From the sequence record KX130862: DNA of 64,000 nt, one strand, 5' to 3'. Of the stretch, positions 413 to 57,560 are shown one piece after another. The stretch's first letter is position 1; each line of letters begins with the position of its first letter. Source of the DNA: Shigella phage SHFML-26. The position numbers and the translations under genes were made by a program. Under the pieces are notes generated by a model. That model had not been told where the DNA came from and made no database searches. It saw only the letters and a program-made list of their open reading frames with translations.

Positions 413-2095
413 TTAAACCATTACAGTAAATCGACCAACTTTCTTCATTTGAAGATGCTGACCATATGCTTGCGGGTCGTGGTCTCTATGTGAAATAACA
501 AAAACATTAGTATTTTTTAAACTATCTAAAATAGTTGAAATAGCTTTTACACCTTCAACATCGGTTGCTGAATCAAAAACTTCGTCAAGAATTAACGTGT
601 TTATTTTAACACCTGAAACTTTTTCAGCAATATCACGCCAAGTAAATAAAAGAGCAATATCAATTCGTGCTTTTTCGCCTTGACTGAATGAAGCATAACT
701 AAAATCTTCACGACCGCGGGATTTAATTGTCTCATTAAATTCTTCATCTAATGTAAACACATAATCCGCTTCCATTATTTTAAGATAATGGTTAATCTGC
801 TTATTAAATAATGGAATGTACTTTTTAATAATAGCACCTTTAATACCAGAATCTTTGAGCATATCAGTCAAAATTCCTCGGTGGTATTTTTCCATTACTA
901 AATTAGTTTTTGTCTTAACAATTTTATCAAGTTCTTCTTGAAGCAGTGCTATTTCATCAGCATGGTCAATAAACTCGGATGATGCTTTTTCTATAGCTGC
1001 TTTAACTTTTTTAGCTTTATCTACAGTCGTGATTAGAGATTGCTTTTTATTGCGAATATCATTCGCCAACGTCTGCTGAGTTTTAATATTATCTCGGTAT
1101 TCATCAACAAGAACTTTTAAATTATCACGATGTGTTGAAAGCTGTTCAAACGAATGCGTACATTCAGAAACTTTATCTTTAATTTTAGAAACAACTTTAT
1201 CACCGGAACTCAATTGTGACAAACAGGTTGGACATAATCCACCTTCGTGATACATATTAATGACTTTATTATACGAGTCAATTTTTGATTTAATTAAAAC
1301 TGCTTCTTGACCGATTTTATTAAATGCATCAGTCGGGTCTTCATCTAAAACAATATTAACTAATCTTTCATTAGCTTTTTCTATTTCCGATTTTAGCGTT
1401 CTAGCTTCTTTTGCCAAATCATCATACATATTTTGCAGACGAGTAAGATTGTCACCCGTTAATTTTTTCTGGCGTTCAACGTTATCATTATATATTTTAA
1501 TTTGTTGGATAATACTATCTTTTTTAACGTCAAGCACTTGGTTTTGTGAATTTAATTCACGTATTAGTGCTTTATTAAGCTTATCCATTTCAGCTAATGT
1601 TCCTACCTCAAGCAGGTCTTCCACAAGCTTTCTTCGCGCAGGGGTCGACAAACCCATGAAAGGGGTATACCCTGCTGTACCAAGGACAACAATCTGCTTG
1701 AAACTGGCATATGACATTCCGATAAGCTGTTCAAATTCTGCTTGGAAATCTTTACTGCTGGCAGATTCATTAAGACGTGTACCGTTAACGGTGATTTCAA
1801 AAACGTTCGGTTTTTGTCCTCTTTTGATATAGTACTTTTTCTCATCATATTCCATCCACAGTTCAACTAAAAGTTCTTTCTTATTTGTGCTGTTTATTAA
1901 TTGGCCTTTCTTTACATCACGAAATGGCTTGCCAAAAAGCCCAAATGTGATGGCTTCTAACATAGTAGACTTACCACCGCCATTTCGTCCAGTAATAAGA
2001 GTTTTTTGAACCTTATCTAATTGAATGTCAACTCCATTTTGACCAACTGACATTATATTTTTATATTTTACTCTATTAAGTTTAAATGATTTCAT
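413..2095 (-). CDS. 46: recombination endonuclease subunit gp46 (SbcC/Rad50-like ATPase)
   Basis: 560 aa; N-terminal Walker A (GRNGGGKST), long coiled-coil with CPTC zinc hook, C-terminal signature and Walker B (LILDEVFD); size equals T4 gp46. Confidence 0.95.
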   Translation of the reverse strand: MKSFKLNRVKYKNIMSVGQNGVDIQLDKVQKTLITGRNGGGKSTMLEAITFGLFGKPFRDVKKGQLINSTNKKELLVELWMEYDEKKYYIKRGQKPNVFEITVNGTRLNESASSKDFQAEFEQLIGMSYASFKQIVVLGTAGYTPFMGLSTPARRKLVEDLLEVGTLAEMDKLNKALIRELNSQNQVLDVKKDSIIQQIKIYNDNVERQKKLTGDNLTRLQNMYDDLAKEARTLKSEIEKANERLVNIVLDEDPTDAFNKIGQEAVLIKSKIDSYNKVINMYHEGGLCPTCLSQLSSGDKVVSKIKDKVSECTHSFEQLSTHRDNLKVLVDEYRDNIKTQQTLANDIRNKKQSLITTVDKAKKVKAAIEKASSEFIDHADEIALLQEELDKIVKTKTNLVMEKYHRGILTDMLKDSGIKGAIIKKYIPLFNKQINHYLKIMEADYVFTLDEEFNETIKSRGREDFSYASFSQGEKARIDIALLFTWRDIAEKVSGVKINTLILDEVFDSATDVEGVKAISTILDSLKNTNVFVISHRDHDPQAYGQHLQMKKVGRFTVMV

Positions 2096-2110
2096 TTTGT
2101 ATCCAATTGT

Positions 2111-2965
2111 TCACAATGAAGAAAATTCTTTAACTAAAGCCTGTAATGAAGCCTCTATTGGATATCCATTCTTAACTAACATTTTCCTAAACATCACATG
2201 TTTAGGACGATTATATGATATCCACAATTCATACAATTTATCTTTATTATCCCAATGATAGCCTTTTCGTCGAGATGCTATATGAGCTTTTCTAATCTCC
2301 GGATTTTTCCAACTAGCAGCTACTGAATTTGATATAGCTATTTTATATTCAGGTTTTGATAAAGCAGCACGAACAGCCTTTTGGTGTTTAATTTTATTTT
2401 CTTCGTTATTAAACCATTCCCTTGAAGCCATTGAAATTTTTTGTTTTGTTTTAAAATTATTTAATCTTTCTTTGTTATCTTTCCTATTTTTTGCTACTGA
2501 AAAATATTTTAATGCCCTTTCTCTAGCAGCATTTCTATTTTGCGGATTTGAATAATATTGTTGAAGCCTTTTTGATATTGTGTCACTTACATCTTGTTTT
2601 ATAAAACTATATTCAGCAGCTATTAAATCAACTTCGGCTAAAGATAAATTTTTATATGTTTTTCCTGACATCATTCTATTTAAAGCATTTAGCATTTTTC
2701 CATTTTTACCTTTTGCTAATAAGAAATGTGCTTTAAAATGATTAAAATGACTTAAATTAACTAAATTCCATGTAGATTTTAAATATTCAGGAAATATTGA
2801 TTTAGGAAGCACGTGATGTGCTTCCGTTTTACCTGGAGTTTTAACAGTTGAATTCATAGAAATAAAATTAATGTAAGACTTGGCGTCTTCTTCACTCAAC
2901 GCTAATTTTTCAACTAATTCCTTTATTAAAAATTCATCATTAATGTCAAGTTTAAAATTCTTCAC
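2111..2965 (-). CDS. HNH-family homing endonuclease (free-standing)
   Basis: 284 aa; HNH motif (EAHHVLPKS...NLVNLSHFNHFKAH); basic C-terminal region; apparent GTG start overlapping the upstream stop (GTGA). Confidence 0.75.
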   Translation of the reverse strand: MKNFKLDINDEFLIKELVEKLALSEEDAKSYINFISMNSTVKTPGKTEAHHVLPKSIFPEYLKSTWNLVNLSHFNHFKAHFLLAKGKNGKMLNALNRMMSGKTYKNLSLAEVDLIAAEYSFIKQDVSDTISKRLQQYYSNPQNRNAARERALKYFSVAKNRKDNKERLNNFKTKQKISMASREWFNNEENKIKHQKAVRAALSKPEYKIAISNSVAASWKNPEIRKAHIASRRKGYHWDNKDKLYELWISYNRPKHVMFRKMLVKNGYPIEASLQALVKEFSSL

Positions 2966-2967
2966 AA
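2931..2967 (-). repeat. direct repeat copy 1 (about 37 bp, roughly 85 percent identical to 3134-3170)
   Basis: aattcatcattaatgtcaagtttaaaattcttcacaa versus aattcatcattaatgtcaaatgtcgaaaacttcacaa; encodes the N-terminus of the HNH gene. Confidence 0.6.
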
Positions 2968-3177
2968 AAGATTCCTTTTAATGTATCTTTTAGACCATTC
3001 TATCATATCATCATAATCTAAAAAGTATTCATCAAATTCAGCCATGCAAACAACGCCTTGTGCTGTTTTTGATGTAATATAAATTATTCCAACATATCTA
3101 GAATCTTCTTCGGTATAATCAATATTTGCTATGAATTCATCATTAATGTCAAATGTCGAAAACTTCACAATACGCAT
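2962..3177 (-). CDS. small hypothetical protein (gene 46.1 position)
   Basis: Track ORF 2962..3225; internal ATG (MRIVKFSTFDINDEF...) is the more likely start; lies between genes 47 and 46. Confidence 0.45.
   Translation of the reverse strand: MRIVKFSTFDINDEFIANIDYTEEDSRYVGIIYITSKTAQGVVCMAEFDEYFLDYDDMIEWSKRYIKRNLL
3134..3170 (-). repeat. direct repeat copy 2 (encodes the N-terminus of the 46.1-position gene)
   Basis: See copy 1; gives the two adjacent genes similar N-termini (..KFSTFDINDEF versus ..KNFKLDINDEF). Confidence 0.6.
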
Positions 3178-3412
3178 CCTTAATACAAGATACAGCCATA
3201 TCTCGTAATGATTTAAGTGTGTCATTATCTAAAATGTTGAAGTTAAAAGATACAGCCCAATCTGTACAGACCGTAACCTTTTTAATACAATTATCTTCAA
3301 CCTCTAACGGTTCAAACCAATATTCAATAATTTCTTTATGACCAATATCATCTTTTACTTCGCATTCAAAATGCTGACTCATCATAACATTTTTAAATTC
3401 ATCAAAAGTCAT
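3149..3412 (-). CDS. small hypothetical protein (gene 46.2 position)
   Basis: 87-aa ORF; ATG start overlaps the gp47 stop (ATGA). Confidence 0.5.
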   Translation of the reverse strand: MTFDEFKNVMMSQHFECEVKDDIGHKEIIEYWFEPLEVEDNCIKKVTVCTDWAVSFNFNILDNDTLKSLRDMAVSCIKDAYCEVFDI

Positions 3413-4428
3413 TGTGTTGCCTCTACATATAGCTGATTTGCATATTGAATAAGTGCTTCACGGTCAGAATCAGTGATGTCTGGAATTGCATTAATGTATT
3501 CTTCCATCAATGTCTGAAGCGATTGAACTTCAACTTCTTCACTGTCATCTGACTCGACAGAGTTATCAATCTTTGACACAACTCGTAATGAATGCACAAC
3601 TTTTTCTAGTTCAGATTCGAACTTCGTTAGATTTTTGTCTACTTCAGTTACTATAACACGTACTGATAGATTTGTAAAATCTTTATAGTCAATTTTTCCT
3701 TTAAATGGATAATGAATTCTACGATGCCAGGTAGTATTGTTTGGAATAAATTCCATTCGTTCTGTTTCTGTATCAAACATCCAGAACCCACGAGGGTCAT
3801 TCTCGTCACCTGCAGTTAGTGTCCATGGTGTCCCAATATATCTAACGTTAGCAGCCTCAGAGATAGTATGGAAGTGACCAGACCACACTTCTTTATAAGT
3901 CTTAAGGAAATCAGGTTCAAGACCGTGAGATTTCATTCCTTTATAAAAATAAAATCCATTCAGTTCCCAGTGACCAACACAAAAAGAAGCAGATGAAGTT
4001 TTGATGTGCTCAAGAATTTCACCAGTATTTTCTTCGCACATCCAAGGAATTAAATCAATTAAACATCCGTCAAAATCTACTGTAGTAGGCTTATCATATA
4101 CTTTAACATTAGGATATTTAGCCAAAAGCTCAGTAGAAGCATTTGGATGCATTACATTTTTGTAGTGGAGATCGTGATTTCCTACAATAGTATGTAATGT
4201 GATTCCAGCACCATCAAGCATTTGAACTATTTCACGGGCAAACTCCATAGTTTTATGCGTGATCGCTTTTCGTACATCAAAAATATCACCGTATTGAATC
4301 CATACCGTAATTCCATTTTTCTTAGAATATTCTATCGCTTGCTTAATTCCATCAATTTGAATACCGCGAATCCACTCATCATCAGCTTTAACGCCTAAAT
4401 GCCAATCACCCAAGTTTAGTATTTTCAT
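3409..4428 (-). CDS. 47: recombination endonuclease subunit gp47 (SbcD/Mre11-like phosphoesterase)
   Basis: 339 aa; calcineurin-like phosphoesterase motifs (GDWHLG, GDIFD, GNHD); size equals T4 gp47. Confidence 0.95.
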   Translation of the reverse strand: MKILNLGDWHLGVKADDEWIRGIQIDGIKQAIEYSKKNGITVWIQYGDIFDVRKAITHKTMEFAREIVQMLDGAGITLHTIVGNHDLHYKNVMHPNASTELLAKYPNVKVYDKPTTVDFDGCLIDLIPWMCEENTGEILEHIKTSSASFCVGHWELNGFYFYKGMKSHGLEPDFLKTYKEVWSGHFHTISEAANVRYIGTPWTLTAGDENDPRGFWMFDTETERMEFIPNNTTWHRRIHYPFKGKIDYKDFTNLSVRVIVTEVDKNLTKFESELEKVVHSLRVVSKIDNSVESDDSEEVEVQSLQTLMEEYINAIPDITDSDREALIQYANQLYVEATQ

Positions 4429-21115: not shown

Positions 21116-21205
21116 TTACCAGTTTAATTCTAGTCATCTTTTTAATGGCAGTCCATATAATCTATTTCTGAACTGCCTTTTTGTCTTAGAAGTCCTCTTA
21201 TGAAT

Positions 21206-22174
21206 TTATTTCAGAAGAGTAACCTCAGCGATTTCTTCCCAACCGTTTTTGTCGGTCATAATAAAGTCAGCAAGATAAAGAGCAGTACGCAGTGAAACAT
21301 TACGTAAACGGTTAACATTGACTTTCATCCATGATAATGCTTTATAAGTTTCTTCATCAGAAAGACCGCGCTTTTGCATCATGTCGGTTGAAAGAATAAC
21401 ATCTTCAACCCTGACCATAATTTCTTCATTAGTGTGAACACCCAAATCTAAATAAACTGAGCGGGACACTAATGCTTGTAAATGTGGAGCAAGTTTAGTA
21501 CCACGGTCTAATTCGCGGTCAATATCAACGTTTGTGATAAAAACAATTGTTCCTTTAAATTCAAACTCACGGTCAATGCCTTTTTCTTCTAAGTAAGAAG
21601 ATGCAGTGCTCCAGCAGACTTTACGGGTCTCTCCAGTGTCCAGAGCAGCTTTCAGAAGATTAAGAATGTCCATATCAGAGAAAACATCCACATCATCAAT
21701 CAAAAGGACAGAATTCTCTTCACGATTATTCCAAAGCTGCTCATAAAGACCAATACCAGAGATTTTACCATTAATGCTTTTATATTCAATGTATCCAATA
21801 TCATTTGCTTTATTCAAAGCTTTATCTAAAGAATACGTTTTACCAATACCCGCCGCACCAGAGATAATTAATGAACGAATGTTTCCGTTAATAATACCAT
21901 TCGTCATCATTCCCATAACATTAAATCTTTTATTAATGCGGGTTTTCATATCTTCATACGATTCTTTAACTTCTTCAACTTTTACACCATCATATGAAAT
22001 GTCTGATTTGTAAACCCAAACACCGCGACGCTTACCGTCAATTTCAACAAAAACTTTACCATCTCCTTGTGCATCTACCGGAGCATTATCTGGGAACCAT
22101 TCGCCTAAGAGCTCAAAAGTTCCAGAGATTTCTTTACCGAAGTAGATACCCTTATTGATAGTTACAGTTTTCAT
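21206..22174 (-). CDS. P-loop NTPase (AAA-like ATPase)
   Basis: Walker A GAAGIGKT and Walker B VLLIDDVD; own early promoter upstream; track ORF 21206..22186 begins at TTG, ATG at MKTVTINKG preferred. Confidence 0.7.
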   Translation of the reverse strand: MKTVTINKGIYFGKEISGTFELLGEWFPDNAPVDAQGDGKVFVEIDGKRRGVWVYKSDISYDGVKVEEVKESYEDMKTRINKRFNVMGMMTNGIINGNIRSLIISGAAGIGKTYSLDKALNKANDIGYIEYKSINGKISGIGLYEQLWNNREENSVLLIDDVDVFSDMDILNLLKAALDTGETRKVCWSTASSYLEEKGIDREFEFKGTIVFITNVDIDRELDRGTKLAPHLQALVSRSVYLDLGVHTNEEIMVRVEDVILSTDMMQKRGLSDEETYKALSWMKVNVNRLRNVSLRTALYLADFIMTDKNGWEEIAEVTLLK

Positions 22175-22208
22175 TTTATTCTCCAAATCCGTATTAGTTG
22201 ATAGTTGT

Positions 22209-22238
22209 ATAGTACCATAAAGCTTTATGCTTGTAAAC
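22209..22238 (-). promoter_or_regulatory. T4-type early promoter with conserved leader
   Basis: Same module upstream of the ATPase gene (start 22174). Confidence 0.55.
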
Positions 22239-22261
22239 CGTTTTGTGAAAAATTTTTGAAA

Positions 22262-22288
22262 TAAAAAAGGGAGCCCGAAGGCTCCCTA
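22262..22288 (-). terminator. intrinsic terminator (UUCG-loop hairpin plus U-tract) after the nucleotidyltransferase-like gene
   Basis: Minus strand AGGGAGCCUUCGGGCUCCCU followed by UUUUUUAUUU. Confidence 0.65.
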
Positions 22289-23302
22289 TCATTTATAATA
22301 ACTTCGGTGGTTTTCAAGATAGACCTTCTCAAGGAAGTCATCCCAGAAACCCATGTCTACTTTTTGCTGCATACCGTTCTTAGAAGCTTCAGTAGATGCT
22401 GCTTCTACTTGATCGACCACATCTTCCAAAAACTCTTGAACCGTTTTAAATGGATGTTTACCCAACTTCACGTCGAGAATAAATGGAGCGTCTTGAAGTG
22501 GATAAATCAAGTCGCCAGTTTTGTAAATTTCCAATAGTTGGAGTCCACCACGACAAGCATGGCTCAGAGCTTTCCAGTCAATACCTTCATTGGCTTCAGC
22601 CTTACGAGCGCGTTCACCATATTCAGCATCTAATTTGTTCAGTGACTGCTTAAGCTCAATAAGAGAAAGAGTTGTCTGATATTTACGACCCAACACTGTG
22701 TAAAACGTCTGTGGGCCTGTTTTCTCATGATTATGGAACACCCATTCACAGAATTCGTTTTCTGGAAGACGATGCTTAATATCTTCAACTTTAGTGCGAC
22801 GCTGCTTAATAGAACCATCTTCTTGATAATCAATCCATTGCTCAGGGATTTGATTAACTACTTTCAATACATCACGTAATGCAGCCAAACGAGAACCCTT
22901 GACACCGTATTTAGAAGCTTGCTTACGGACATATCCTAAATAGGATTTCATGTTAGTCGTATAAAAACGAGAACGGTTGTCTTGAATAAACTTCCATACA
23001 TCAGGCAAATCGGATTTAACCACTAGTTCAGGTGGAGTGTGAAGCATATCCAACGCTACAGTTTCACCATCTGCTGCTAATTTAAAGAAATACTTAAGAC
23101 TGTATAGTTCATGGTCAATATCATCTTTAGTGTTTTTAGATGATGTGTTGTTAGTGTTTTTACTCATATGCTCTTTAACATTTCCGATAAGAATATCGCG
23201 AGCAGGAGGAACAAAGATTTCTTTAAAATCTACATCAGATTCTGGGGTAGAAGTTCCATAAAGATGACTACCAAAATAGCTTTTCATTACTGTTTTCATC
23301 AT
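22289..23302 (-). CDS. nucleotidyltransferase-fold protein (Pol-beta superfamily-like)
   Basis: 337 aa; N-terminal GS-x10-DxD motif (GSHLYGTSTPESDVDF) with a further acidic cluster (KDDIDHE) about 35 residues later; followed by an intrinsic terminator. Confidence 0.6.
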   Translation of the reverse strand: MMKTVMKSYFGSHLYGTSTPESDVDFKEIFVPPARDILIGNVKEHMSKNTNNTSSKNTKDDIDHELYSLKYFFKLAADGETVALDMLHTPPELVVKSDLPDVWKFIQDNRSRFYTTNMKSYLGYVRKQASKYGVKGSRLAALRDVLKVVNQIPEQWIDYQEDGSIKQRRTKVEDIKHRLPENEFCEWVFHNHEKTGPQTFYTVLGRKYQTTLSLIELKQSLNKLDAEYGERARKAEANEGIDWKALSHACRGGLQLLEIYKTGDLIYPLQDAPFILDVKLGKHPFKTVQEFLEDVVDQVEAASTEASKNGMQQKVDMGFWDDFLEKVYLENHRSYYK

Positions 23303-23760
23303 TCAGCCTTATATTCAATAACAGGACATACTTTAGCTTTACGAGCTTTTAAAAATTCAACGATAATCGATTTCTTGGGTTGAATAGGAGGTAAACCTTT
23401 ATACGCCCTATCAATATTTTCTACGTGTAAAGCATAATCCTTTTTCCATTTATAATCTTTATATTTTTCACGCAAATGTGCAGGAATAACAAATGAACCG
23501 ATAATAAGTAAAACAACCAAAAGCGCAAGTATAAATGCCGATGGAAGAAGAGTCCATAAACTACCGAAAATAAGCCAACGTTGTAGGCTTTCTGCACAAA
23601 TAATTGTTAGCCCTACGAGTATAGCACATCCAAAAATAGAAACGAAAAATGTAGGAATGGCAATAGACCAAAAATATGCGCATAGTGTCTTAGGTCGTTG
23701 CCATTCATCGTTAAATAGTTTAAATAATTTATAGTGCCAAGAGTTTTCATTAATAATCAT
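23299..23760 (-). CDS. integral membrane protein
   Basis: 153 aa with three predicted transmembrane helices. Confidence 0.55.
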   Translation of the reverse strand: MIINENSWHYKLFKLFNDEWQRPKTLCAYFWSIAIPTFFVSIFGCAILVGLTIICAESLQRWLIFGSLWTLLPSAFILALLVVLLIIGSFVIPAHLREKYKDYKWKKDYALHVENIDRAYKGLPPIQPKKSIIVEFLKARKAKVCPVIEYKAE

Positions 23761-23762
23761 AA

Positions 23763-24284
23763 TTATCCTTTCATTGAAGGCGTAACAGTTGTTAAATACT
23801 TAATCATAGCCTCAGCTTCTGATTTTGATAATGAAATTTCTCCATTGTTTTGACGAATAGAAATAAAATCCGGATGACGGTCACCACCAGCTTTTAAAAC
23901 ACACATATAAGTATCAGTTTCATCTTCAATATTTGAAATGATTGAAGCAGTTCCACATGAATGCGGTTTTTGATAAATCAATACAGCTTTTCTTCCGCCA
24001 TTTGACTGTTCATAAACTTTTAATACATCAAACAAATCACTTCTTTTATCAATAGCTAAAATGTTATTTTCATCTTCAATGTTAAATCCTTCGGATACTT
24101 CATAAAGTGTCACCCATAAATCGCCAATATCAATAACAGCGTTCACTTTTCCATGACTTTCAAGAGCATGACAAATTTTCTTGATTTCGTCATAACTCAT
24201 TTTAATAATATCATCTCCTTGAATAAGAAAGATGTCATTTTTAAATTCAACACGAATTAAACCACTTCCACTTGAAATAAACAT
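23763..24284 (-). CDS. hypothetical protein (tandem paralog A)
   Basis: 173 aa; C-terminus SKSEAEAMIKYLTTVTPSMKG resembles that of the adjacent gene. Confidence 0.55.
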   Translation of the reverse strand: MFISSGSGLIRVEFKNDIFLIQGDDIIKMSYDEIKKICHALESHGKVNAVIDIGDLWVTLYEVSEGFNIEDENNILAIDKRSDLFDVLKVYEQSNGGRKAVLIYQKPHSCGTASIISNIEDETDTYMCVLKAGGDRHPDFISIRQNNGEISLSKSEAEAMIKYLTTVTPSMKG

Positions 24285-24290
24285 ATTTCC

Positions 24291-24848
24291 TCACTTTGAA
24301 ATCATAGTTGGAATGACAGAATCAAGATAAGTCTTTAGTGCAATAGCTTCGTCTTTGGTAAATGTGACAATATGTGATCGAAAATCGTCGATTTGGCGAA
24401 TAGTTAAGACATCTCCCTCTTCATAACATTTTGATACATTTAAAAGAGTTTCATCATTCTGATTGCAAGCGTTAGTAATAATAGCATTGCAATTTTTGAG
24501 CCATTTTAAACTATGTTTTCTTTCATTAGAATAATAAAAATATTTAATCTTAGCTATAAAACTATCCCAATGGATAACTGATAAACACATTGACTCACTT
24601 TTAATATTAAATCCTGGGCATGAAGAATAAAAATGAATTTTGTGCTCATCATTGATACTTACTATTTTATCAGTATAAGGATATTCAATTTGGGTTAAAT
24701 GAATGATTTCACTAGGCGTAAAATATAGCATATCGTCTTCTTGCGTCAAACGATACATGTTATTTACTTTTTCTATAGCCAATTCACCAAAAAGCGGACT
24801 AACTTCTAATACTAATCGTTTCATATTGATTCTCTTCGACTCACTCAC
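24291..24848 (-). CDS. hypothetical protein (tandem paralog B)
   Basis: 185 aa; C-terminus TKDEAIALKTYLDSVIPTMISK; early-type promoter upstream. Confidence 0.55.
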   Translation of the reverse strand: MSESKRINMKRLVLEVSPLFGELAIEKVNNMYRLTQEDDMLYFTPSEIIHLTQIEYPYTDKIVSINDEHKIHFYSSCPGFNIKSESMCLSVIHWDSFIAKIKYFYYSNERKHSLKWLKNCNAIITNACNQNDETLLNVSKCYEEGDVLTIRQIDDFRSHIVTFTKDEAIALKTYLDSVIPTMISK

Positions 24849-24983
24849 AATTACATACTCCTTTGAATAATATCAATAATGTTGTTCATCAGATTATAAG
24901 TAAACATTGGGTAATTATATTGAATCATTACATACACAACAAACAAAACTTTCATTCTCTTCTCCTTGACAGTTGACAAGATT

Positions 24984-25013
24984 ACTATACCATAACCTTG
25001 CCAACTTGTAAAC
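24984..25013 (-). promoter_or_regulatory. T4-type early promoter
   Basis: GTTTAC, spacer, TATAGT upstream of the 24291..24848 gene. Confidence 0.45.
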
Positions 25014-25015
25014 CG

Positions 25016-25189
25016 TTAAATGTTGTTTTCAATAAAATTCTGAAGCTTTGTGTGAGCATCAACCATGATTTTCATTTCTTCCTTTGCGAAAGCTGTACCT
25101 CTTTCCCGAGCAGAATACTCATAGTCAGAAACTGCATTAGCATATTCTTCAATTAGCTTCATTAAAAACATCTGCTTTTCAGTTTTCAT
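25016..25189 (-). CDS. small ORF (57 aa) beginning MKTEKQ
   Basis: ATG-initiated minus ORF whose ribosome-binding site and first six codons repeat those of the gene at 25376..25576; below the track cutoff. Confidence 0.3.
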   Translation of the reverse strand: MKTEKQMFLMKLIEEYANAVSDYEYSARERGTAFAKEEMKIMVDAHTKLQNFIENNI

Positions 25190-25373
25190 TATTCCACCTA
25201 ATCATTTCAAGATATTGGACTAACTTAGCTTTAGATTTATCCAAATCCCTTTTAGCTGATTCTATACCATCGTATGAATATCCTTCACAATGCTCAACTG
25301 CTAATTGATATGAATCTATTTCAACATCACGTGCTAATTTAATGATTTTTTCAAACTGTTCGTGCGTTAGCAT
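25179..25373 (-). CDS. hypothetical protein
   Basis: 64-aa ORF. Confidence 0.4.
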   Translation of the reverse strand: MLTHEQFEKIIKLARDVEIDSYQLAVEHCEGYSYDGIESAKRDLDKSKAKLVQYLEMIRWNNEN

Positions 25374-25375
25374 AC

Positions 25376-25576
25376 TTAAACTCTCGTATTATGATCGATA
25401 ATTTCATCAAGAAACATATCTAACGCTTCTAAAGCATTATCGACTTTAGTTTCAAAGTCTTTAATGCCTTTATTCGAAATACCCGATGAATACCAAGCAA
25501 AGTCAATCAGCTCTTCATCTGCTTTACGAATTGAAGCCACTAATTCCTTAATTTTATCCGCTTGCTTTTCAGTTTT
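25376..25576 (-). CDS. small hypothetical protein beginning MKTEKQ
   Basis: Track ORF 25376..25615 trimmed to the internal ATG ([13 protein letters not shown]...). Confidence 0.45.
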   Translation of the reverse strand, partial: KTEKQADKIKELVASIRKADEELIDFAWYSSGISNKGIKDFETKVDNALEALDMFLDEIIDHNTRV

Positions 25577-25578
25577 CA

Positions 25579-25767
25579 TTATTCCACCACATATGACAGA
25601 GAGAATATTGCACACGCCATATGAGTTGCAGCTTCATCACACATATCATAACGTTTCTTAAGAAGTTCTACAAGTTCTTCACTAGTAACTTCATCCATGT
25701 CGACGAAAAAATCACCATTAATGATGACGTAGATATTTCCTTCTTGATTAAGTGCTTCAATTTTCAT
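25579..25767 (-). CDS. hypothetical acidic protein
   Basis: Track ORF 25579..25812 includes promoter-leader translation; ATG at [10 protein letters not shown] follows the conserved leader and SD. Confidence 0.45.
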
Positions 25768-25795
25768 GATGTTCTCCTCTTTATCCGATAGTTGT

Positions 25796-25825
25796 ATAGT
25801 ATCACAGTTCAAATGGAAAGTAAAC
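25796..25825 (-). promoter_or_regulatory. T4-type early promoter with conserved leader
   Basis: GTTTAC, spacer, TACTAT and leader ACAACTATCGGATAAAGAGGAGAAC before the ATG near 25767. Confidence 0.55.
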
Positions 25826-25834
25826 CGGTAAAAT

Positions 25835-25858
25835 GAAAAAAGTCTCCCGAAGGAGACT
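25835..25858 (-). terminator. intrinsic terminator (UUCG-loop hairpin plus U-tract)
   Basis: Minus strand AGUCUCCUUCGGGAGACU followed by UUUUUUC after the 25863..26249 gene. Confidence 0.6.
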
Positions 25859-25862
25859 AATG

Positions 25863-26249
25863 TTATTCGAGGGAAAGAAGATATTTACTCTGGTAAAACA
25901 TCCCAGTAATATCATCTATCGTGCTTTGAATGGCTGGAGGCATTTCTTTATAAATGCTGTTAGATTGGTCTAGTATGCGATCAATCATTTTAATTGTGTC
26001 GGTAGGAAGTTTACTGGCATCTGGAATAGAAGGCGTGTATTTTCTACCAGAATACCCCAAATATTGCTCACCAAATTTATCAATCAAATCTGGCAACTCA
26101 GAGAAAATAAAATCGTATGCTTTGTGTCTAGCATAACTTTTAGTTTCAAAATGCGCAGAATGAAAATAAGCTTGTGCAGCCATTAATAAACCTAAGTATT
26201 CATCTGCCTTTGAAGGTTTTCCACTTTGTGAAAAGTCGCTGAATTTCAT
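25863..26249 (-). CDS. hypothetical protein (position upstream of rI)
   Basis: 128-aa ORF; stop followed by a UUCG hairpin terminator. Confidence 0.55.
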
Positions 26250-26539
26250 TCAGTCTCCAATTTAATGTTCATAATTCTAGCGTATGATTGTGCCATCTCC
26301 GCGCCTCGCTCTATACATTCAAAATCAGAAGAGCACGGGTCATTTTTATAAGTCGTTCGCATAAAACTATAGAACTGTTCAGATGATTCTACGCTTTTAT
26401 TTTCAAAAAGCATATAAACGTGTCTAATACCAGATTCCATAAATTTATCAAAATGAGGATCGACATTCGCTTCAATTGGTGGAGATAAAGCAAACGCTAA
26501 TCCTAGCATGGCAAATAGTGCCGTTGCTTTTAAGGCCAT
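26246..26539 (-). CDS. rI: lysis inhibition regulator RI
   Basis: 97 aa; N-terminal signal-anchor MALKATALFAMLGLAFALSPPIEA; length and sequence match T4 RI. Confidence 0.9.
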   Translation of the reverse strand: MALKATALFAMLGLAFALSPPIEANVDPHFDKFMESGIRHVYMLFENKSVESSEQFYSFMRTTYKNDPCSSDFECIERGAEMAQSYARIMNIKLETE

Positions 26540-55096: not shown

Positions 55097-56901
55097 TGAA
55101 ACAAAATATTAATATCGGTAATGTTGTTGATGATGGTACCGGTGACTACCTGCGTAAAGGTGGTATAAAAATAAATGAAAACTTTGATGAACTTTATTAT
55201 GAACTTGGCGATGGAGATGTTCCATATTCAGCCGGTGCCTGGAAAACTTATAATGCTTCATCTGGTCAAACATTAAAAGCTAAGTGGGGAAAATCATACG
55301 CTATTAATACCTCTTCTGGAAGAGTAACTTTACAACTTCCTAAAGGAACTGTTAATGATTATAATAAAGTAATTAGAGCTAGGGATGTATTTGCAACATG
55401 GAACATTAATCCAGTTACTTTAGTAGCTGCTTCTGGAGATACAATTAAAGGGTCGTCATCATCGGTTGAAATTAATACTCAATTTAGTGATTTAGAGCTC
55501 GTTTATTGCGCTCCAGGACGTTGGGAGTATGTCAAAAACAAACAAATTGACAAAATTATTAGTTCAGATATTAGTAATGTAGCACGTAAAGAATTTTTAG
55601 TCGAAGTTCAAGGACAAACGGACTTTTTAGATGTTTTCCGCGGAACTAGCTATAATGTTAATAACATCCGAGTAAAACACCGTGGTAATGAATTATATTA
55701 CGGCGATGTATTTAGTGAAAACAGTGACTTTGGCTCTCCTGGGGAAAATGAAGGAGAATTGATTCCTCTTGATGGATTTAATATTAGGTTAAGACAGCCT
55801 TGTAATATTGGTGACACTGTTCAAATTGAAACATTTATGGATGGTATATCACAATGGAGAAGTTCATATACAAGACGCCAAATAAAAGTATTAGATTCAA
55901 AATTAACGTCAAAAACTTCTTTAGAAGGAAGTATTTACGTTACTGATTTATCAACAATGAAATCAATTCCATTCTCTGCATTTGGATTAATTCCTGGAGA
56001 ACCTATTAATCCTAATTCTCTTGAAGTTCGTTTTAATGGAATTTTACAACAACAAGCTGGAACAGCAGGATATCCTCTGTTTTTGTGTGAAGGTGCTAAC
56101 TCAGATACGCAAGCAGGATGTATATCTCTTGGTGGTGAATGGAAAGAATCGAACACAGATTATTCTATAGAATATGAAGATGGAAAACCTGTCAGTCTTT
56201 TATTTGATAGAAAATTTGAATCAGGTGATATAATCGTTATAACATGGTTTAATAATGATTTAGGAACTCTTTTAGAAAAAGATGACATTATTGAATTAAC
56301 TGATGACCGTTATGTTAGTAAAGGATCATCTACTGAAGTTACTGGGGATGTAGCCTTAACAGATTTTGATAAAATCGGTTGGCCAAATGTTGAAAAAGTT
56401 GATTCTTATACTAGAACGTATAATTCAATATCATCTATTTTCGACAGCATTTATCCTGTTGGTTCAATTTATGAAAATGCTATAAACCCAAATAATCCGG
56501 TGACTTATATGGGATTTGGTTCATGGAAATTATTTGGTAAAGGACAAGTTTTAGTAGGATGGAATGATGATGTTACGGATCCAAACTTTGCTTTAAACAA
56601 TAATGATTTAGATTCTAGCGGAAATCCTTCACATACTGCCGGTGGAACAGTTGGTACAACATCAGTAACGCTTGAAAACGCAAATCTTCCTGCGACTAAA
56701 ACTGATGAAAGAGTTTTAATTGAAGACGAAAATGGATCAGTTATTATTGGAGGTTGCCAATATGACCCAGACGAAACTGGTCCTATATATACAAAATATC
56801 GTGAAGACTACGCAACAACAAACTCTTCACATACTCCTCCTGCTAATATTAGTAATATTCAACCGTCTATTACTGTATACCGTTGGATAAGGATTGCATA
56901 A
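55096..56901 (+). CDS. 10: baseplate wedge protein gp10
   Basis: 601 aa, close to T4 gp10 (602 aa). Confidence 0.95.
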
Positions 56902-57560
56902 TGAGTTTACTTAATAATAAAGCGGGAGTTATTTCCCGCTTAGCAGATTTTCTTGGTTTTAGAACTAAGAAAAATGATATTTCGGTTATGAATAATCAAC
57001 CGGTAGGCGCTGTAACAATTTCACAAATAGCAAAAGGTTTTTATGACTCAAATGTAGAATCTGCTATCAATGATGTTAGAAATATGGCAGAGCAACAGGT
57101 TGGAGCTGTATTAATTAATATAAGCGGCGTATCTCCTACTGGCGTGCAACAAACCGACTATTGGTCATTTGAAGGAACTGTTACTGATACTTCAGCCAAA
57201 CCAGGTGACCCAGTTATTGTTAACATGTTTGGTATTCCAGTTAAAGCTACTAATGGAATGACTTCAATTGAATTTACTAGTGCTGTTAGAACAGCTCTAC
57301 AGGAAATGGTTGTAAAATTTATTGCAATTGATTCATTTGAAGACCATCCTACTATAGGGAATAAAATACAAGTTAAGTATTTAGATAACCAAGAACATAT
57401 CTTAGAGCAATACTCTGATAAAGGAATTACTTTCAAACAAGAAATAATTTCTCCTTCTAAACCCGGGTATGGAACTTGGCAATTATTAGGTGCGCAAACT
57501 GTTACGCTAGATAGTCACACACAACCTACAGTATTTTATTATTTTGAGAGAATAGCATGA
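56901..57560 (+). CDS. 11: baseplate wedge, short-tail-fibre attachment protein gp11
   Basis: Track ORF 56883..57560; ATG at [20 protein letters not shown] gives 219 aa as in T4 gp11 (TAATG overlap with gene 10). Confidence 0.93.

What the first reader, a model, noticed from the sequence alone, without database searches (positions are those of the whole stretch)
23299..24848. Membrane protein followed by a tandem pair of paralogous genes
The 23763..24284 and 24291..24848 products share a similar C-terminal segment (SKSEAEAMIKYLTTVTPSMKG versus TKDEAIALKTYLDSVIPTMISK) and similar length, indicating a tandem duplication. They follow a three-helix membrane protein and sit where T4 has the mobD endonuclease block as I recall it; no endonuclease is present here. 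Their function is unknown.
Basis: seen in the sequence. Interest (0 to 1): 0.4.

Follow-up and report, generated by a model that had tools for sequence, protein, structure and literature searches.

The report
Duplicated T4 mobD.1 genes, PUR-like fold
The two genes are a real, old tandem duplication of the T4 gene mobD.1; they are predicted to fold like PUR/Whirly/PC4 single-strand nucleic-acid-binding proteins, sit next to a conserved small membrane protein, and were already catalogued but never functionally studied, so this is only a modest curiosity.

Summary
The window is a T4-like phage (Tequatrovirus), and all genes in the interval lie on the minus strand. The paralogy is real. BLASTP gives E=1e-8 over the full length, and the similarity stays significant without the C-terminal motif. 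Both proteins match Pfam T4_y05I_N and T4_y05I_C.

The upstream copy (24291-24848) is the ortholog of T4 MobD.1. The downstream copy (23763-24284) is a diverged paralog found only in Tequatrovirus. The RB32 GenBank record already flags it as "similar to mobD.1".

T4 keeps the ribosome-binding site, the ATG and the first six codons of the paralog. Its mobD endonuclease gene then replaces the rest of the paralog and the whole membrane gene. The arrangement in this window is therefore the ancestral one.

The membrane protein has two hydrophobic segments, not three. Across several Tevenvirinae genera, a gene carrying a y05I_C repeat sits directly upstream of this membrane gene.

The genes are under purifying selection, yet they are dispensable: absent in T4 and frameshifted in T2. 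Function is inferred, not shown.

The parts
24984..25012 (-). T4-type early promoter-like site (TTTACA-17-TATAGT with TG) upstream of mobD.2
   Evidence: It is the best sigma-70-like match in 22000-26500, 10 of 12 positions with an extended -10. The equivalent site is annotated as a T4 early promoter in phage SA21RB.
24851..24955 (-). mobD.2 (34 aa)
   Evidence: ORF seen. It has the same position and length as RB32 and T4 mobD.2.
24291..24848 (-). MobD.1 ortholog (185 aa from GTG 24848, or 177 aa from ATG 24824). y05I_N covers about 24525-24815 and y05I_C about 24303-24512.
   Evidence: 86% identical to T4 MobD.1. Matches PF24449 at E 5e-39 and PF24448 at E 6e-21. dN/dS is 0.06-0.24.
23763..24284 (-). 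Diverged MobD.1 paralog (173 aa). y05I_N covers about 24000-24281 and y05I_C about 23772-23981. Predicted to consist of three beta4-alpha repeats.
23299..23760 (-). Small inner-membrane protein (153 aa). Hydrophobic segments lie at aa 25-56 (23593-23688) and aa 62-94 (23479-23577). The C-terminal tail is basic and carries a conserved KARKxKVCPxIEY motif.
   Evidence: PHROG 944 'membrane protein', E 4e-50. Hydropathy and charge. Low-confidence AF2 model. Homologs in 917 phage records. dN/dS is 0-0.17.
22289..23302 (-). nrdC.11, an RlaP-type nucleotidyltransferase. Its start overlaps the stop of the membrane gene (ATGA).
   Evidence: PF10127 RlaP at E 2e-11. Annotation. Sequence.
22268..22287 (-). 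Intrinsic terminator-like hairpin that closes the transcription unit
   Evidence: 8-bp stem with 6 GC pairs followed by a T run. A terminator is annotated at the same place in SA21RB.
23304..24265 (.). Segment that T4 lacks and fills with the mobD HNH endonuclease gene. It spans paralog codon 7 to the end of the membrane gene.
   Evidence: blastn breakpoints between window and T4. Junction sequences are shown.

Best explanation
SHOWN.
- The two genes are an old tandem duplication of mobD.1 (Pfam y05I family). The upstream copy is the conserved ortholog. The downstream copy is a diverged paralog seen only in Tequatrovirus.
- They lie in one tightly packed minus-strand unit: early promoter, mobD.2, MobD.1, paralog, membrane protein, NrdC.11, terminator.
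- T4 lost the paralog and the membrane gene when the mobD homing-endonuclease gene replaced them. A 19-nt stub of the paralog remains in T4.

PREDICTED.
- Each protein consists of three beta-beta-beta-beta-alpha repeats of the PC4-like / PUR / Whirly fold class.
- Repeats 1 and 2 (y05I_N) form a closed two-repeat domain like Pur-alpha repeats I-II.
- Repeat 3 (y05I_C) is a half-domain that also exists as a stand-alone protein of 63-87 aa in other Tevenvirinae.

INFERRED.
- As with Pur-alpha repeat III and the Borrelia Pur-alpha homologue (Bpur), the free third repeat pairs with another such repeat. The proteins would then act as homodimers or as MobD.1/paralog heterodimers.
- The dimer binds single-stranded RNA or DNA early in infection.
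- It acts together with the downstream two-pass membrane protein, next to which it is encoded in every Tevenvirinae genome examined here that has a y05I gene.
- The module is a non-essential accessory function, involved in host interaction or exclusion rather than core replication.
For: Paralogy.

Orthology and single-copy state elsewhere: Dhakavirus VR5 and Mosigvirus JN02 have one MobD.1 followed by the membrane gene and nrdC.11.

T4 stub. T4 reads TGAGGAAATATGTTTATTTCAAGTGGAA, identical to the window, and then diverges into mobD. Homology resumes at the nrdC.11 start. mobD occurs in only 47 records, all >=99% identical. The paralog occurs in about 432 records at 90-100% identity.

Coupling to the membrane gene.
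- A y05I_C-bearing ORF ends <=21 nt upstream of the membrane gene in 13 of 16 IMG/VR loci.
- The same adjacency holds in Tequatrovirus, Mosigvirus, Dhakavirus, Jiaodavirus, Gelderlandvirus, Moonvirus and Yersinia phage P8.
- Phage SEA1 carries a second copy of the pair.

Early operon.

Selection: dN/dS is 0.05-0.24 in all but one near-identical pair.

Dispensability: absent in T4; frameshifted in T2; the T4 nrdC.11-mobD.3 segment can be deleted (PMC9825161).
Against: - No sequence-level match to the PurA, Whirly or PC4 families, or to any PDB chain.
- The C-domain is modelled with only pLDDT 57-84.
- The whole family is acidic: pI 4.2-5.7 and net charge -5 to -25 in the full-length proteins.
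- The best conserved N-domain motifs are acidic (TQEDD, GFNIExE). This is atypical for non-specific nucleic-acid binders.
- Dimerisation, nucleic-acid binding and any contact with the membrane protein are untested.
- Membrane-protein homologs in an Aeromonas phage and in Erwinia jumbo phages have no y05I neighbour.
Confidence: 0.5

Rival explanations
1. The fold is the same but the proteins do not bind nucleic acid. The acidic PC4-like scaffold would act as a protein-binding adaptor or nucleic-acid mimic. It would dock on the basic cytoplasmic tail of the downstream membrane protein or on a host DNA/RNA-binding protein. This would be comparable to SsgB, a Whirly-like protein that works through protein contacts.
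For: - The family is uniformly acidic, while the tail of the membrane protein is basic: net +7, with a conserved KARKxKVCP motif.
- Synteny with the membrane gene is strict, and the pair is duplicated as a unit in SEA1.
- The conserved N-domain residues are mostly acidic.
Against: - Most members of this fold class bind single-stranded nucleic acids (PMC7549692).
- Several basic residues are conserved in repeat 3: K99, K106, R144 and K154.
- The HHsearch note points to an ssDNA-binding PC4-like protein.
- There is no direct evidence for any protein partner.
Confidence: 0.3
2. The proteins are classical soluble transcription factors, as the Pfam label suggests. They would bind promoter DNA or RNA polymerase to redirect transcription, independently of the membrane protein.
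For: - Pfam names the family 'y05I-like putative transcription factor'.
- PC4, Pur-alpha, p24 and Bpur are transcription regulators.
- The genes are expressed from an early promoter.
Against: - The genes are dispensable in T4 and T2.
- The charge is acidic.
- No literature on their function was found.
- This model does not explain the conserved pairing with a membrane protein.
Confidence: 0.1
3. The downstream copy is a redundant, decaying duplicate with no function of its own.
For: - It is lost in T4.
- It is frameshifted in T2.
- It is fused with MobD.1 into a single hybrid gene in some contigs.
Against: - It is intact and 90-100% identical in about 432 phage records.
- dN/dS is 0.08-0.22 in all informative pairs, similar to MobD.1.
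- Some contigs keep only the paralog-type gene.
Confidence: 0.04
4. The similarity between the two ORFs is due to chance or composition, so there was no duplication.
For: None beyond the low identity of 27% and the absence of DNA-level similarity.
Against: BLASTP E=1e-8. z=12.3, and z=7.1 without the C-terminal motif. Both proteins hit the same two Pfam families and the same PHROG.
Confidence: 0.01

Closest known systems
T4 MobD.1 (UniProt Y05I_BPT4; Pfam PF24449 T4_y05I_N + PF24448 T4_y05I_C; PHROG 1502)
   Same: The upstream gene is its ortholog, with 86% identity and the same flanks. The downstream gene has the same two-domain architecture and a similar length.
   Different: The downstream copy is only 24-27% identical. 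T4 itself has one copy and carries the mobD endonuclease where this window has the second copy and the membrane gene. No function is known for any member.
Pur-alpha (PURA), with three PUR repeats: I-II form an intramolecular domain and III dimerises
   Different: There is no detectable sequence relationship. The phage proteins are acidic. Dimerisation and nucleic-acid binding are not shown. The taxonomic distribution is restricted to Tevenvirinae.
Single-repeat PC4-like proteins that work as homodimers (Borrelia Bpur, S. pneumoniae SP_0782, L. lactis YdbC, the phage T5 PC4 homolog)
   Same: Stand-alone y05I_C proteins of 63-87 aa in Jiaodavirus, Gelderlandvirus and Moonvirus have the same size and one-repeat layout. 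One of them was linked to SP_0782 by an annotator's HHsearch.
   Different: Here the single repeats are encoded directly upstream of a membrane protein, often as tandem pairs. Their biochemistry is unknown.
ChmC, the Whirly-fold RNA-binding protein of chimallivirus jumbo phages
   Different: ChmC is essential, forms tetramers, has a disordered tail and is associated with the phage nucleus. The MobD.1 family is dispensable and is linked to a membrane protein.
T4 MobD, a free-standing HNH homing endonuclease
   Same: It occupies the same genomic slot between nrdC.11 and mobD.1.
   Different: It is unrelated in sequence and absent from this window. It replaces window 23304-24265 rather than being homologous to it.

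Membership tests
T4 MobD.1 / Pfam y05I family | Match to PF24449 (T4_y05I_N) above the gathering score | tested here: met
   118.5 and 133.3 bits against a cut-off of 24.9
T4 MobD.1 / Pfam y05I family | Match to PF24448 (T4_y05I_C) above the gathering score | tested here: met
   82.7 and 75.0 bits against a cut-off of 27
T4 MobD.1 / Pfam y05I family | Orthologous position between mobD.2 and nrdC.11, with high identity to T4 MobD.1 | tested here: met
   Met for the upstream copy: 86% identity and collinear flanks. The downstream copy is a paralog at 24-27% identity.
PC4-like / PUR / Whirly fold class | [quoted passage not shown] | tested here: met
   The AF2 model shows three such units. This is a prediction, not an experimental structure.
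PC4-like / PUR / Whirly fold class | Significant structural similarity to solved members | tested here: inconclusive
PC4-like / PUR / Whirly fold class | Sequence-profile match to the PurA, Whirly, PC4 or DUF2128 families | tested here: not met
   No such Pfam hit at E<=1. No PDB sequence hit. The only link is a third-party HHsearch note to SP_0782.
PC4-like / PUR / Whirly fold class | Binding of single-stranded DNA or RNA | not testable with these tools
   This needs biochemistry. The acidic pI of 4.2-5.7 argues for caution.
Pur-alpha-type architecture | Repeats I-II form an intramolecular domain and repeat III dimerises | tested here: inconclusive
   95 residues align to Pur-alpha repeats I-II, and 55-58 residues align to repeat III structures. 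Stand-alone repeat-3 proteins exist. The oligomeric state cannot be tested here.
HNH homing endonuclease (MobD) | An HNH endonuclease ORF between nrdC.11 and mobD.1 | tested here: not met
   T4 56450-57257 has no counterpart in the window. None of the three proteins hits an endonuclease family.
PHROG 944 phage membrane protein | Profile match plus hydrophobic transmembrane segments | tested here: met
   E 3.8e-50. Two uncharged runs of 32 and 33 residues.
Known anti-phage defence proteins (PADLOC) | Match to a PADLOC model | tested here: not met
   No hit better than E=0.02

The most novel reading that the evidence does not exclude
The Tevenvirinae carry a conserved two-gene module. In it, a PUR-like repeat protein (one repeat, or three as here) works physically with a two-pass inner-membrane protein. 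The module could be a membrane-tethered binder of single-stranded nucleic acid, or a mimic, used for exclusion of superinfecting phage or against host defences. MobD.1 and its paralog would form heterodimers through their third repeats. According to the 2020 review, Pur-alpha is the only reported protein that combines an intramolecular and an intermolecular PC4-like domain. The MobD.1 family would then be the second such case.
Probability: 0.2. Interest if true: 0.55.

Novelty: new member of a known kind. Interest (0 to 1): 0.3.

Why it matters
The practical value is modest.

- It gives a structural class and a testable hypothesis to a T4 gene family that has had no function for decades. The hypothesis is a dimeric PUR/PC4-like binder paired with a membrane protein.
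- It shows that the mobD homing-endonuclease gene of T4 replaced two resident genes rather than inserting into empty space. This narrows the search for MobD's unknown target site to the paralog/membrane-gene interval.
- If the three-repeat, Pur-alpha-like architecture is confirmed, it would be a rare bacterial-virus parallel to a eukaryotic RNA/DNA-binding design.

Tried and rejected
- Foldseek of the model against the PDB gave no significant hit. The afdb50 library was not available.
- BFVD returned only members of the same family.
- HMMER profile searches of PDB sequences with the full-length alignment and with the C-domain alignment gave nothing. The best matches were E=0.19 and E=0.58, to CsoS1D and Nmd3, which I treat as chance.
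- NCBIfam and PADLOC gave nothing.
- Rfam on 22000-26500 gave only sub-threshold hits.
- A C-domain HMM run over all six frames of the window found no further copies.
- The AF2 model of the membrane protein was too poor (pLDDT 63.6, pTM 0.28) to justify a fold search.
- Literature searches for mobD.1, y05I, the RB32/RB69 ORF names and the Pfam accessions found no functional work.
- The search for related loci with the C-domain alignment failed because it has no sufficiently conserved stretch.
- The apparent 56%-identical paralog in T2 is a tblastn artefact caused by frameshifts.
- The two paralogs share no DNA-level similarity, so I reject a recent duplication.
Full report
IDENTITY OF THE WINDOW AND GENE LAYOUT

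The interval 23200-24990 is 97-99% identical to many Tequatrovirus (T4-like) genomes, including AR1, RB32 and T6. A match occurs in 507 phage records.

All real genes here are on the minus strand. In transcription order they are:
- mobD.2 (24851-24955)
- MobD.1 ortholog (24291-24848 from a GTG start, or 24291-24824 from an ATG start)
- a second y05I-family gene (23763-24284)
- a small membrane protein (23299-23760)
- nrdC.11 (22289-23302)

The genes are packed tightly. A TGA stop lies inside the next gene's Shine-Dalgarno sequence, there is a 2-nt gap, and there is an ATGA stop/start overlap.

The best sigma-70-like site in the region, TTTACA-17-TATAGT with a TG extension, lies at 25012-24984, just upstream of mobD.2. 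Hairpin-plus-T-run terminators lie after rI.-1 and after nrdC.11. The SA21RB GenBank record annotates a T4 early promoter and a terminator at the equivalent places. Plus-strand ORFs in the interval are short and unsupported. Rfam finds nothing above threshold.

CHECK OF THE OBSERVATION

The two products align end to end: BLASTP 27% identity, E=1e-8. The local alignment score lies 12.3 standard deviations above 2000 shuffles. With the last 25 residues of both proteins removed it is still 7.1 standard deviations above, and no shuffle reached it. Both proteins match Pfam PF24449 (T4_y05I_N) and PF24448 (T4_y05I_C) far above threshold, and both match PHROG 1502.

The upstream copy is 86% identical to T4 MobD.1. 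The downstream copy is 24% identical to it in the three-way alignment A1. No further copy exists anywhere in the 64-kb window. The two genes share no DNA-level similarity, so the duplication is old.

The RB32 GenBank record already says 'similar to mobD.1' for the downstream gene. For the membrane gene it says 'similar to RB69ORF104c and 44RRORF212c; replaces mobD'.

RELATION TO T4 AND DIRECTION OF THE CHANGE

T4 has nrdC.11 - mobD - mobD.1. Homology between the window and T4 is continuous except for window 23304-24265.

At the left junction T4 reads ...TCAAAGTGAGGAAATATGTTTATTTCAAGTGGAA. This is identical to the window through the MobD.1 stop, the ribosome-binding site, the ATG and the first six codons (MFISSG) of the paralog. 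T4 then diverges into the mobD cassette. Homology resumes at the nrdC.11 start. T4 thus carries a stub of the paralog.

mobD is found in only 47 records, all >=99% identical. The paralog is found in about 432 records at 90-100% protein identity. I infer that the arrangement in this window is ancestral and that the mobD cassette replaced the paralog and the membrane gene in the T4 lineage.

The review of T4 mobile elements lists mobD's insertion site as nrdC.11/mobD.1 and its target as unknown (PMC2988022). The replaced interval is the obvious place to look for that target.

DISTRIBUTION

HMMER against 1.84 billion cluster representatives found only 24 proteins at E<=0.001. About five of them are full length. 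The family is confined to T4-like phages of enterobacteria.

- Dhakavirus VR5, Mosigvirus JN02 and Yersinia phage P8 have one full-length MobD.1 directly upstream of the membrane gene.
- Jiaodavirus, Gelderlandvirus and Moonvirus have stand-alone one-repeat y05I_C proteins of 63-81 aa in the same slot. In SEA1 and NM4.3 they occur as tandem pairs. All stand-alone proteins tested match PF24448.
- SEA1 has a second copy of the pair 'one-repeat protein, then membrane protein' about 2 kb downstream.
- In an independent IMG/VR sample, a y05I_C-bearing ORF ends no more than 21 nt upstream of the membrane gene in 13 of 16 membrane-homolog loci. The exceptions are a 354-kb jumbo phage and two partial matches. 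That sample is biased towards close relatives by the search patterns used.
- The membrane protein family is broader, with 917 phage records including Aeromonas and Erwinia phages that lack a y05I neighbour.

The two full-length copies in tandem were seen only in Tequatrovirus.

STRUCTURE PREDICTION

An AlphaFold2 model of the 173-aa paralog, built from a 25-sequence alignment, has mean pLDDT 79.4. The N-domain scores 83-93 and the C-domain 57-84. The model has three successive units of four or five beta strands followed by a helix: strands 2-29 with helix 31-43, strands 49-78 with helix 81-96, and strands 100-153 with helix 154-167.

All of these belong to the PC4-like / PUR / Whirly class reviewed in PMC7549692.

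A profile-profile comparison shows that repeats 1 and 3 are related in sequence: probability 88%, E=3e-6. Repeat 2 is similar only in structure. Annotators of Moonvirus NM4.3 recorded an HHsearch hit of a stand-alone y05I_C protein to the PC4-like SP_0782/ssDNA complex.

Caveats:
- Foldseek found no significant PDB match.
- BFVD comparisons show that the two domains match well individually but not as a rigid body. This points to a flexible linker and probably explains the Foldseek result.
- No HMMER-level link exists to PurA, Whirly or PC4 families or to any PDB sequence.

MEMBRANE PROTEIN

Hydropathy shows two uncharged runs, residues 25-56 and 62-94, separated by a short polar loop. The N-terminal region is slightly basic and the C-terminal tail strongly basic (15 K+R against 8 D+E).

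The AF2 model is of low confidence (pLDDT 63.6). Its helices at 8-20, 26-64, 68-120 and 132-144 agree with a two-pass hairpin in which both ends lie on the same side of the membrane. This is an inference from the positive-inside rule.

Conserved motifs are NSWHY...P(K)xLCAYFW at the N-terminus and KARKxKVCPxIEY at the C-terminus. No function is recorded for this protein.

SELECTION AND DISPENSABILITY

Among five Tequatrovirus alleles, pairwise dN/dS is 0.06-0.24 for MobD.1 and 0-0.17 for the membrane gene. For the paralog it is 0.08-0.22, apart from one pair, win vs AR1, at 0.76. That pair differs by only four substitutions, so its ratio is uninformative. All three are therefore maintained as protein-coding genes.

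They are nevertheless not needed on laboratory hosts:
- T4 lacks two of them.
- T2 has frameshifts in all three.
- A genome-reduction study recovered viable T4 lacking nrdC.11-mobD.3 (PMC9825161).

Natural rearrangements also occur. One is a hybrid gene made of MobD.1 nt 1-378 joined to paralog nt 361-520, with the crossover at a shared GATGAAACT. It is followed directly by the membrane gene. Another contig keeps only a paralog-type gene. A third is a deletion that fuses the MobD.1 N-terminus to NrdC.11.

HOW IT MOST LIKELY WORKS

Shown: an old tandem duplication of mobD.1, an operon with an early-promoter-like site, conserved pairing with the membrane gene, and replacement by mobD in T4.

Predicted: a three-repeat PUR/PC4-like architecture.

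Inferred: repeats 1-2 form a closed domain. Repeat 3 needs a partner repeat, so the proteins act as homodimers or as MobD.1/paralog heterodimers. The assembly binds single-stranded RNA or DNA, possibly at the inner membrane together with the two-pass protein. The whole module is a non-essential accessory function.

The main weakness is charge. The full-length proteins have pI 4.2-5.7 and net charge -5 to -25, and the most conserved N-domain motifs are acidic. A serious rival follows from this: the fold may be used for protein binding or mimicry, with the basic tail of the membrane protein as the obvious candidate partner.

COMPARISON WITH WHAT IS KNOWN, AND NOVELTY

Both genes are members of the T4 MobD.1/y05I family, and the membership tests are met. 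They resemble Pur-alpha in fold and repeat plan. They cannot be filed as PurA, Whirly or PC4 family members, because the sequence-profile test is not met and binding is untested.

The paralogy and the 'replaces mobD' relation were already recorded in GenBank in 2006, and Pfam already hints at a transcription-factor-like fold. Four points appear to be new here:
- the explicit three-repeat, Pur-alpha-like reading
- the stand-alone third-repeat proteins
- the conserved pairing with the membrane gene
- the paralog stub in T4, which gives the polarity of the mobD replacement

I rate the finding as a new member of a known kind. It is of modest interest (0.3).

Noticed in passing
L003 (T4 NC_000866) about 57258-57282, equivalent to window 24266-24290: T4 retains the Shine-Dalgarno sequence, the ATG and the first six codons (MFISSG) of the paralog it lacks. 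This leaves a short unannotated ORF, MFISSGTDMCYKCKAKLNETKNQ, that runs into the mobD start.
   Followed up: yes
L009-L012 (Logan contigs); protein P0011: A natural hybrid gene made of MobD.1 nt 1-378 plus paralog nt 361-520. The crossover lies at a shared 9-nt GATGAAACT. It reduces the tandem pair to one gene, which is still followed by the membrane gene.
   Followed up: yes
Protein P0073 (210 aa, ENA contig): A fusion of the MobD.1 N-terminus to the C-terminal part of NrdC.11. This is a natural deletion of roughly 2 kb that removes the rest of MobD.1, the paralog, the membrane gene and the 5' part of nrdC.11.
   Followed up: partly
L006 (phage T2, PV648363) 1940-3481: mobD.1, the paralog and the membrane gene all carry frameshifts in T2 and are annotated as fragments. 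The apparent 56% identity of the T2 paralog is an artefact of this.
   Followed up: yes
window 25016-25189, 25179-25373, 25376-25579 (minus strand): mobD.2a, mobD.3 and mobD.4 are three tandem paralogs of Pfam DUF7438 (E 1e-15 to 1e-16). They form a second tandem gene family directly upstream of the finding.
   Followed up: partly
L008 (Salmonella phage SEA1) 4763-5234 and 2957-3460: SEA1 has a second 'one-repeat y05I_C protein, then membrane protein' pair. Separately, the C-terminus of SEA1_gp0099 (...GAFYQLKYLLTLE) resembles the C-terminus of RI.-1 (window 25863-26249, ...[13 protein letters not shown]) rather than the usual KVCPxIEY ending.
   Followed up: partly
L013 (Shigella phage ESh28) 2127-2580; L009 2546-2999; L014 1282-1536: Some relatives carry an 84-88-aa Phage_tudor (PF24144) gene directly upstream of the y05I-family gene. 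In ESh28 and L009 it lies next to a 61-aa DUF7438 gene, in a roughly 430-bp longer interval. The region upstream of mobD.1 is therefore variable too.
   Followed up: partly
window 21116-21205: Only about 90 nt separate nrdC.9 and nrdC.10 here. AR1 and RB32 carry a seg-like GIY-YIG endonuclease gene at that position (L001 1013-1510, L002 791-1510).
   Followed up: partly
Public records for L001, L013, L018 and T2: There are propagated misannotations. MobD.1 and MobD.5 are called 'molybdopterin-guanine dinucleotide biosynthesis protein MobD'. NrdC.11 is called 'thioredoxin'. A MobD.1 homolog is called 'thymidine kinase'. A T2 MobD.1 fragment is called 'prohead core scaffold protein'.
   Followed up: no
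Paralog residues 22-25 and 66-72 (window about 24210-24221 and 24069-24089): The best conserved N-domain motifs of the family are acidic or polar (L-T/I-Q-E/G-D-D and G-F-N-I-E-x-E). This is unexpected for a nucleic-acid-binding sheet and remains unexplained.
   Followed up: no
window 22253-22416 (minus strand): A weak Rfam L20_leader match (27 bits against a gathering score of 58.7, E=0.028) overlaps the terminator after nrdC.11. It is probably chance.
   Followed up: no
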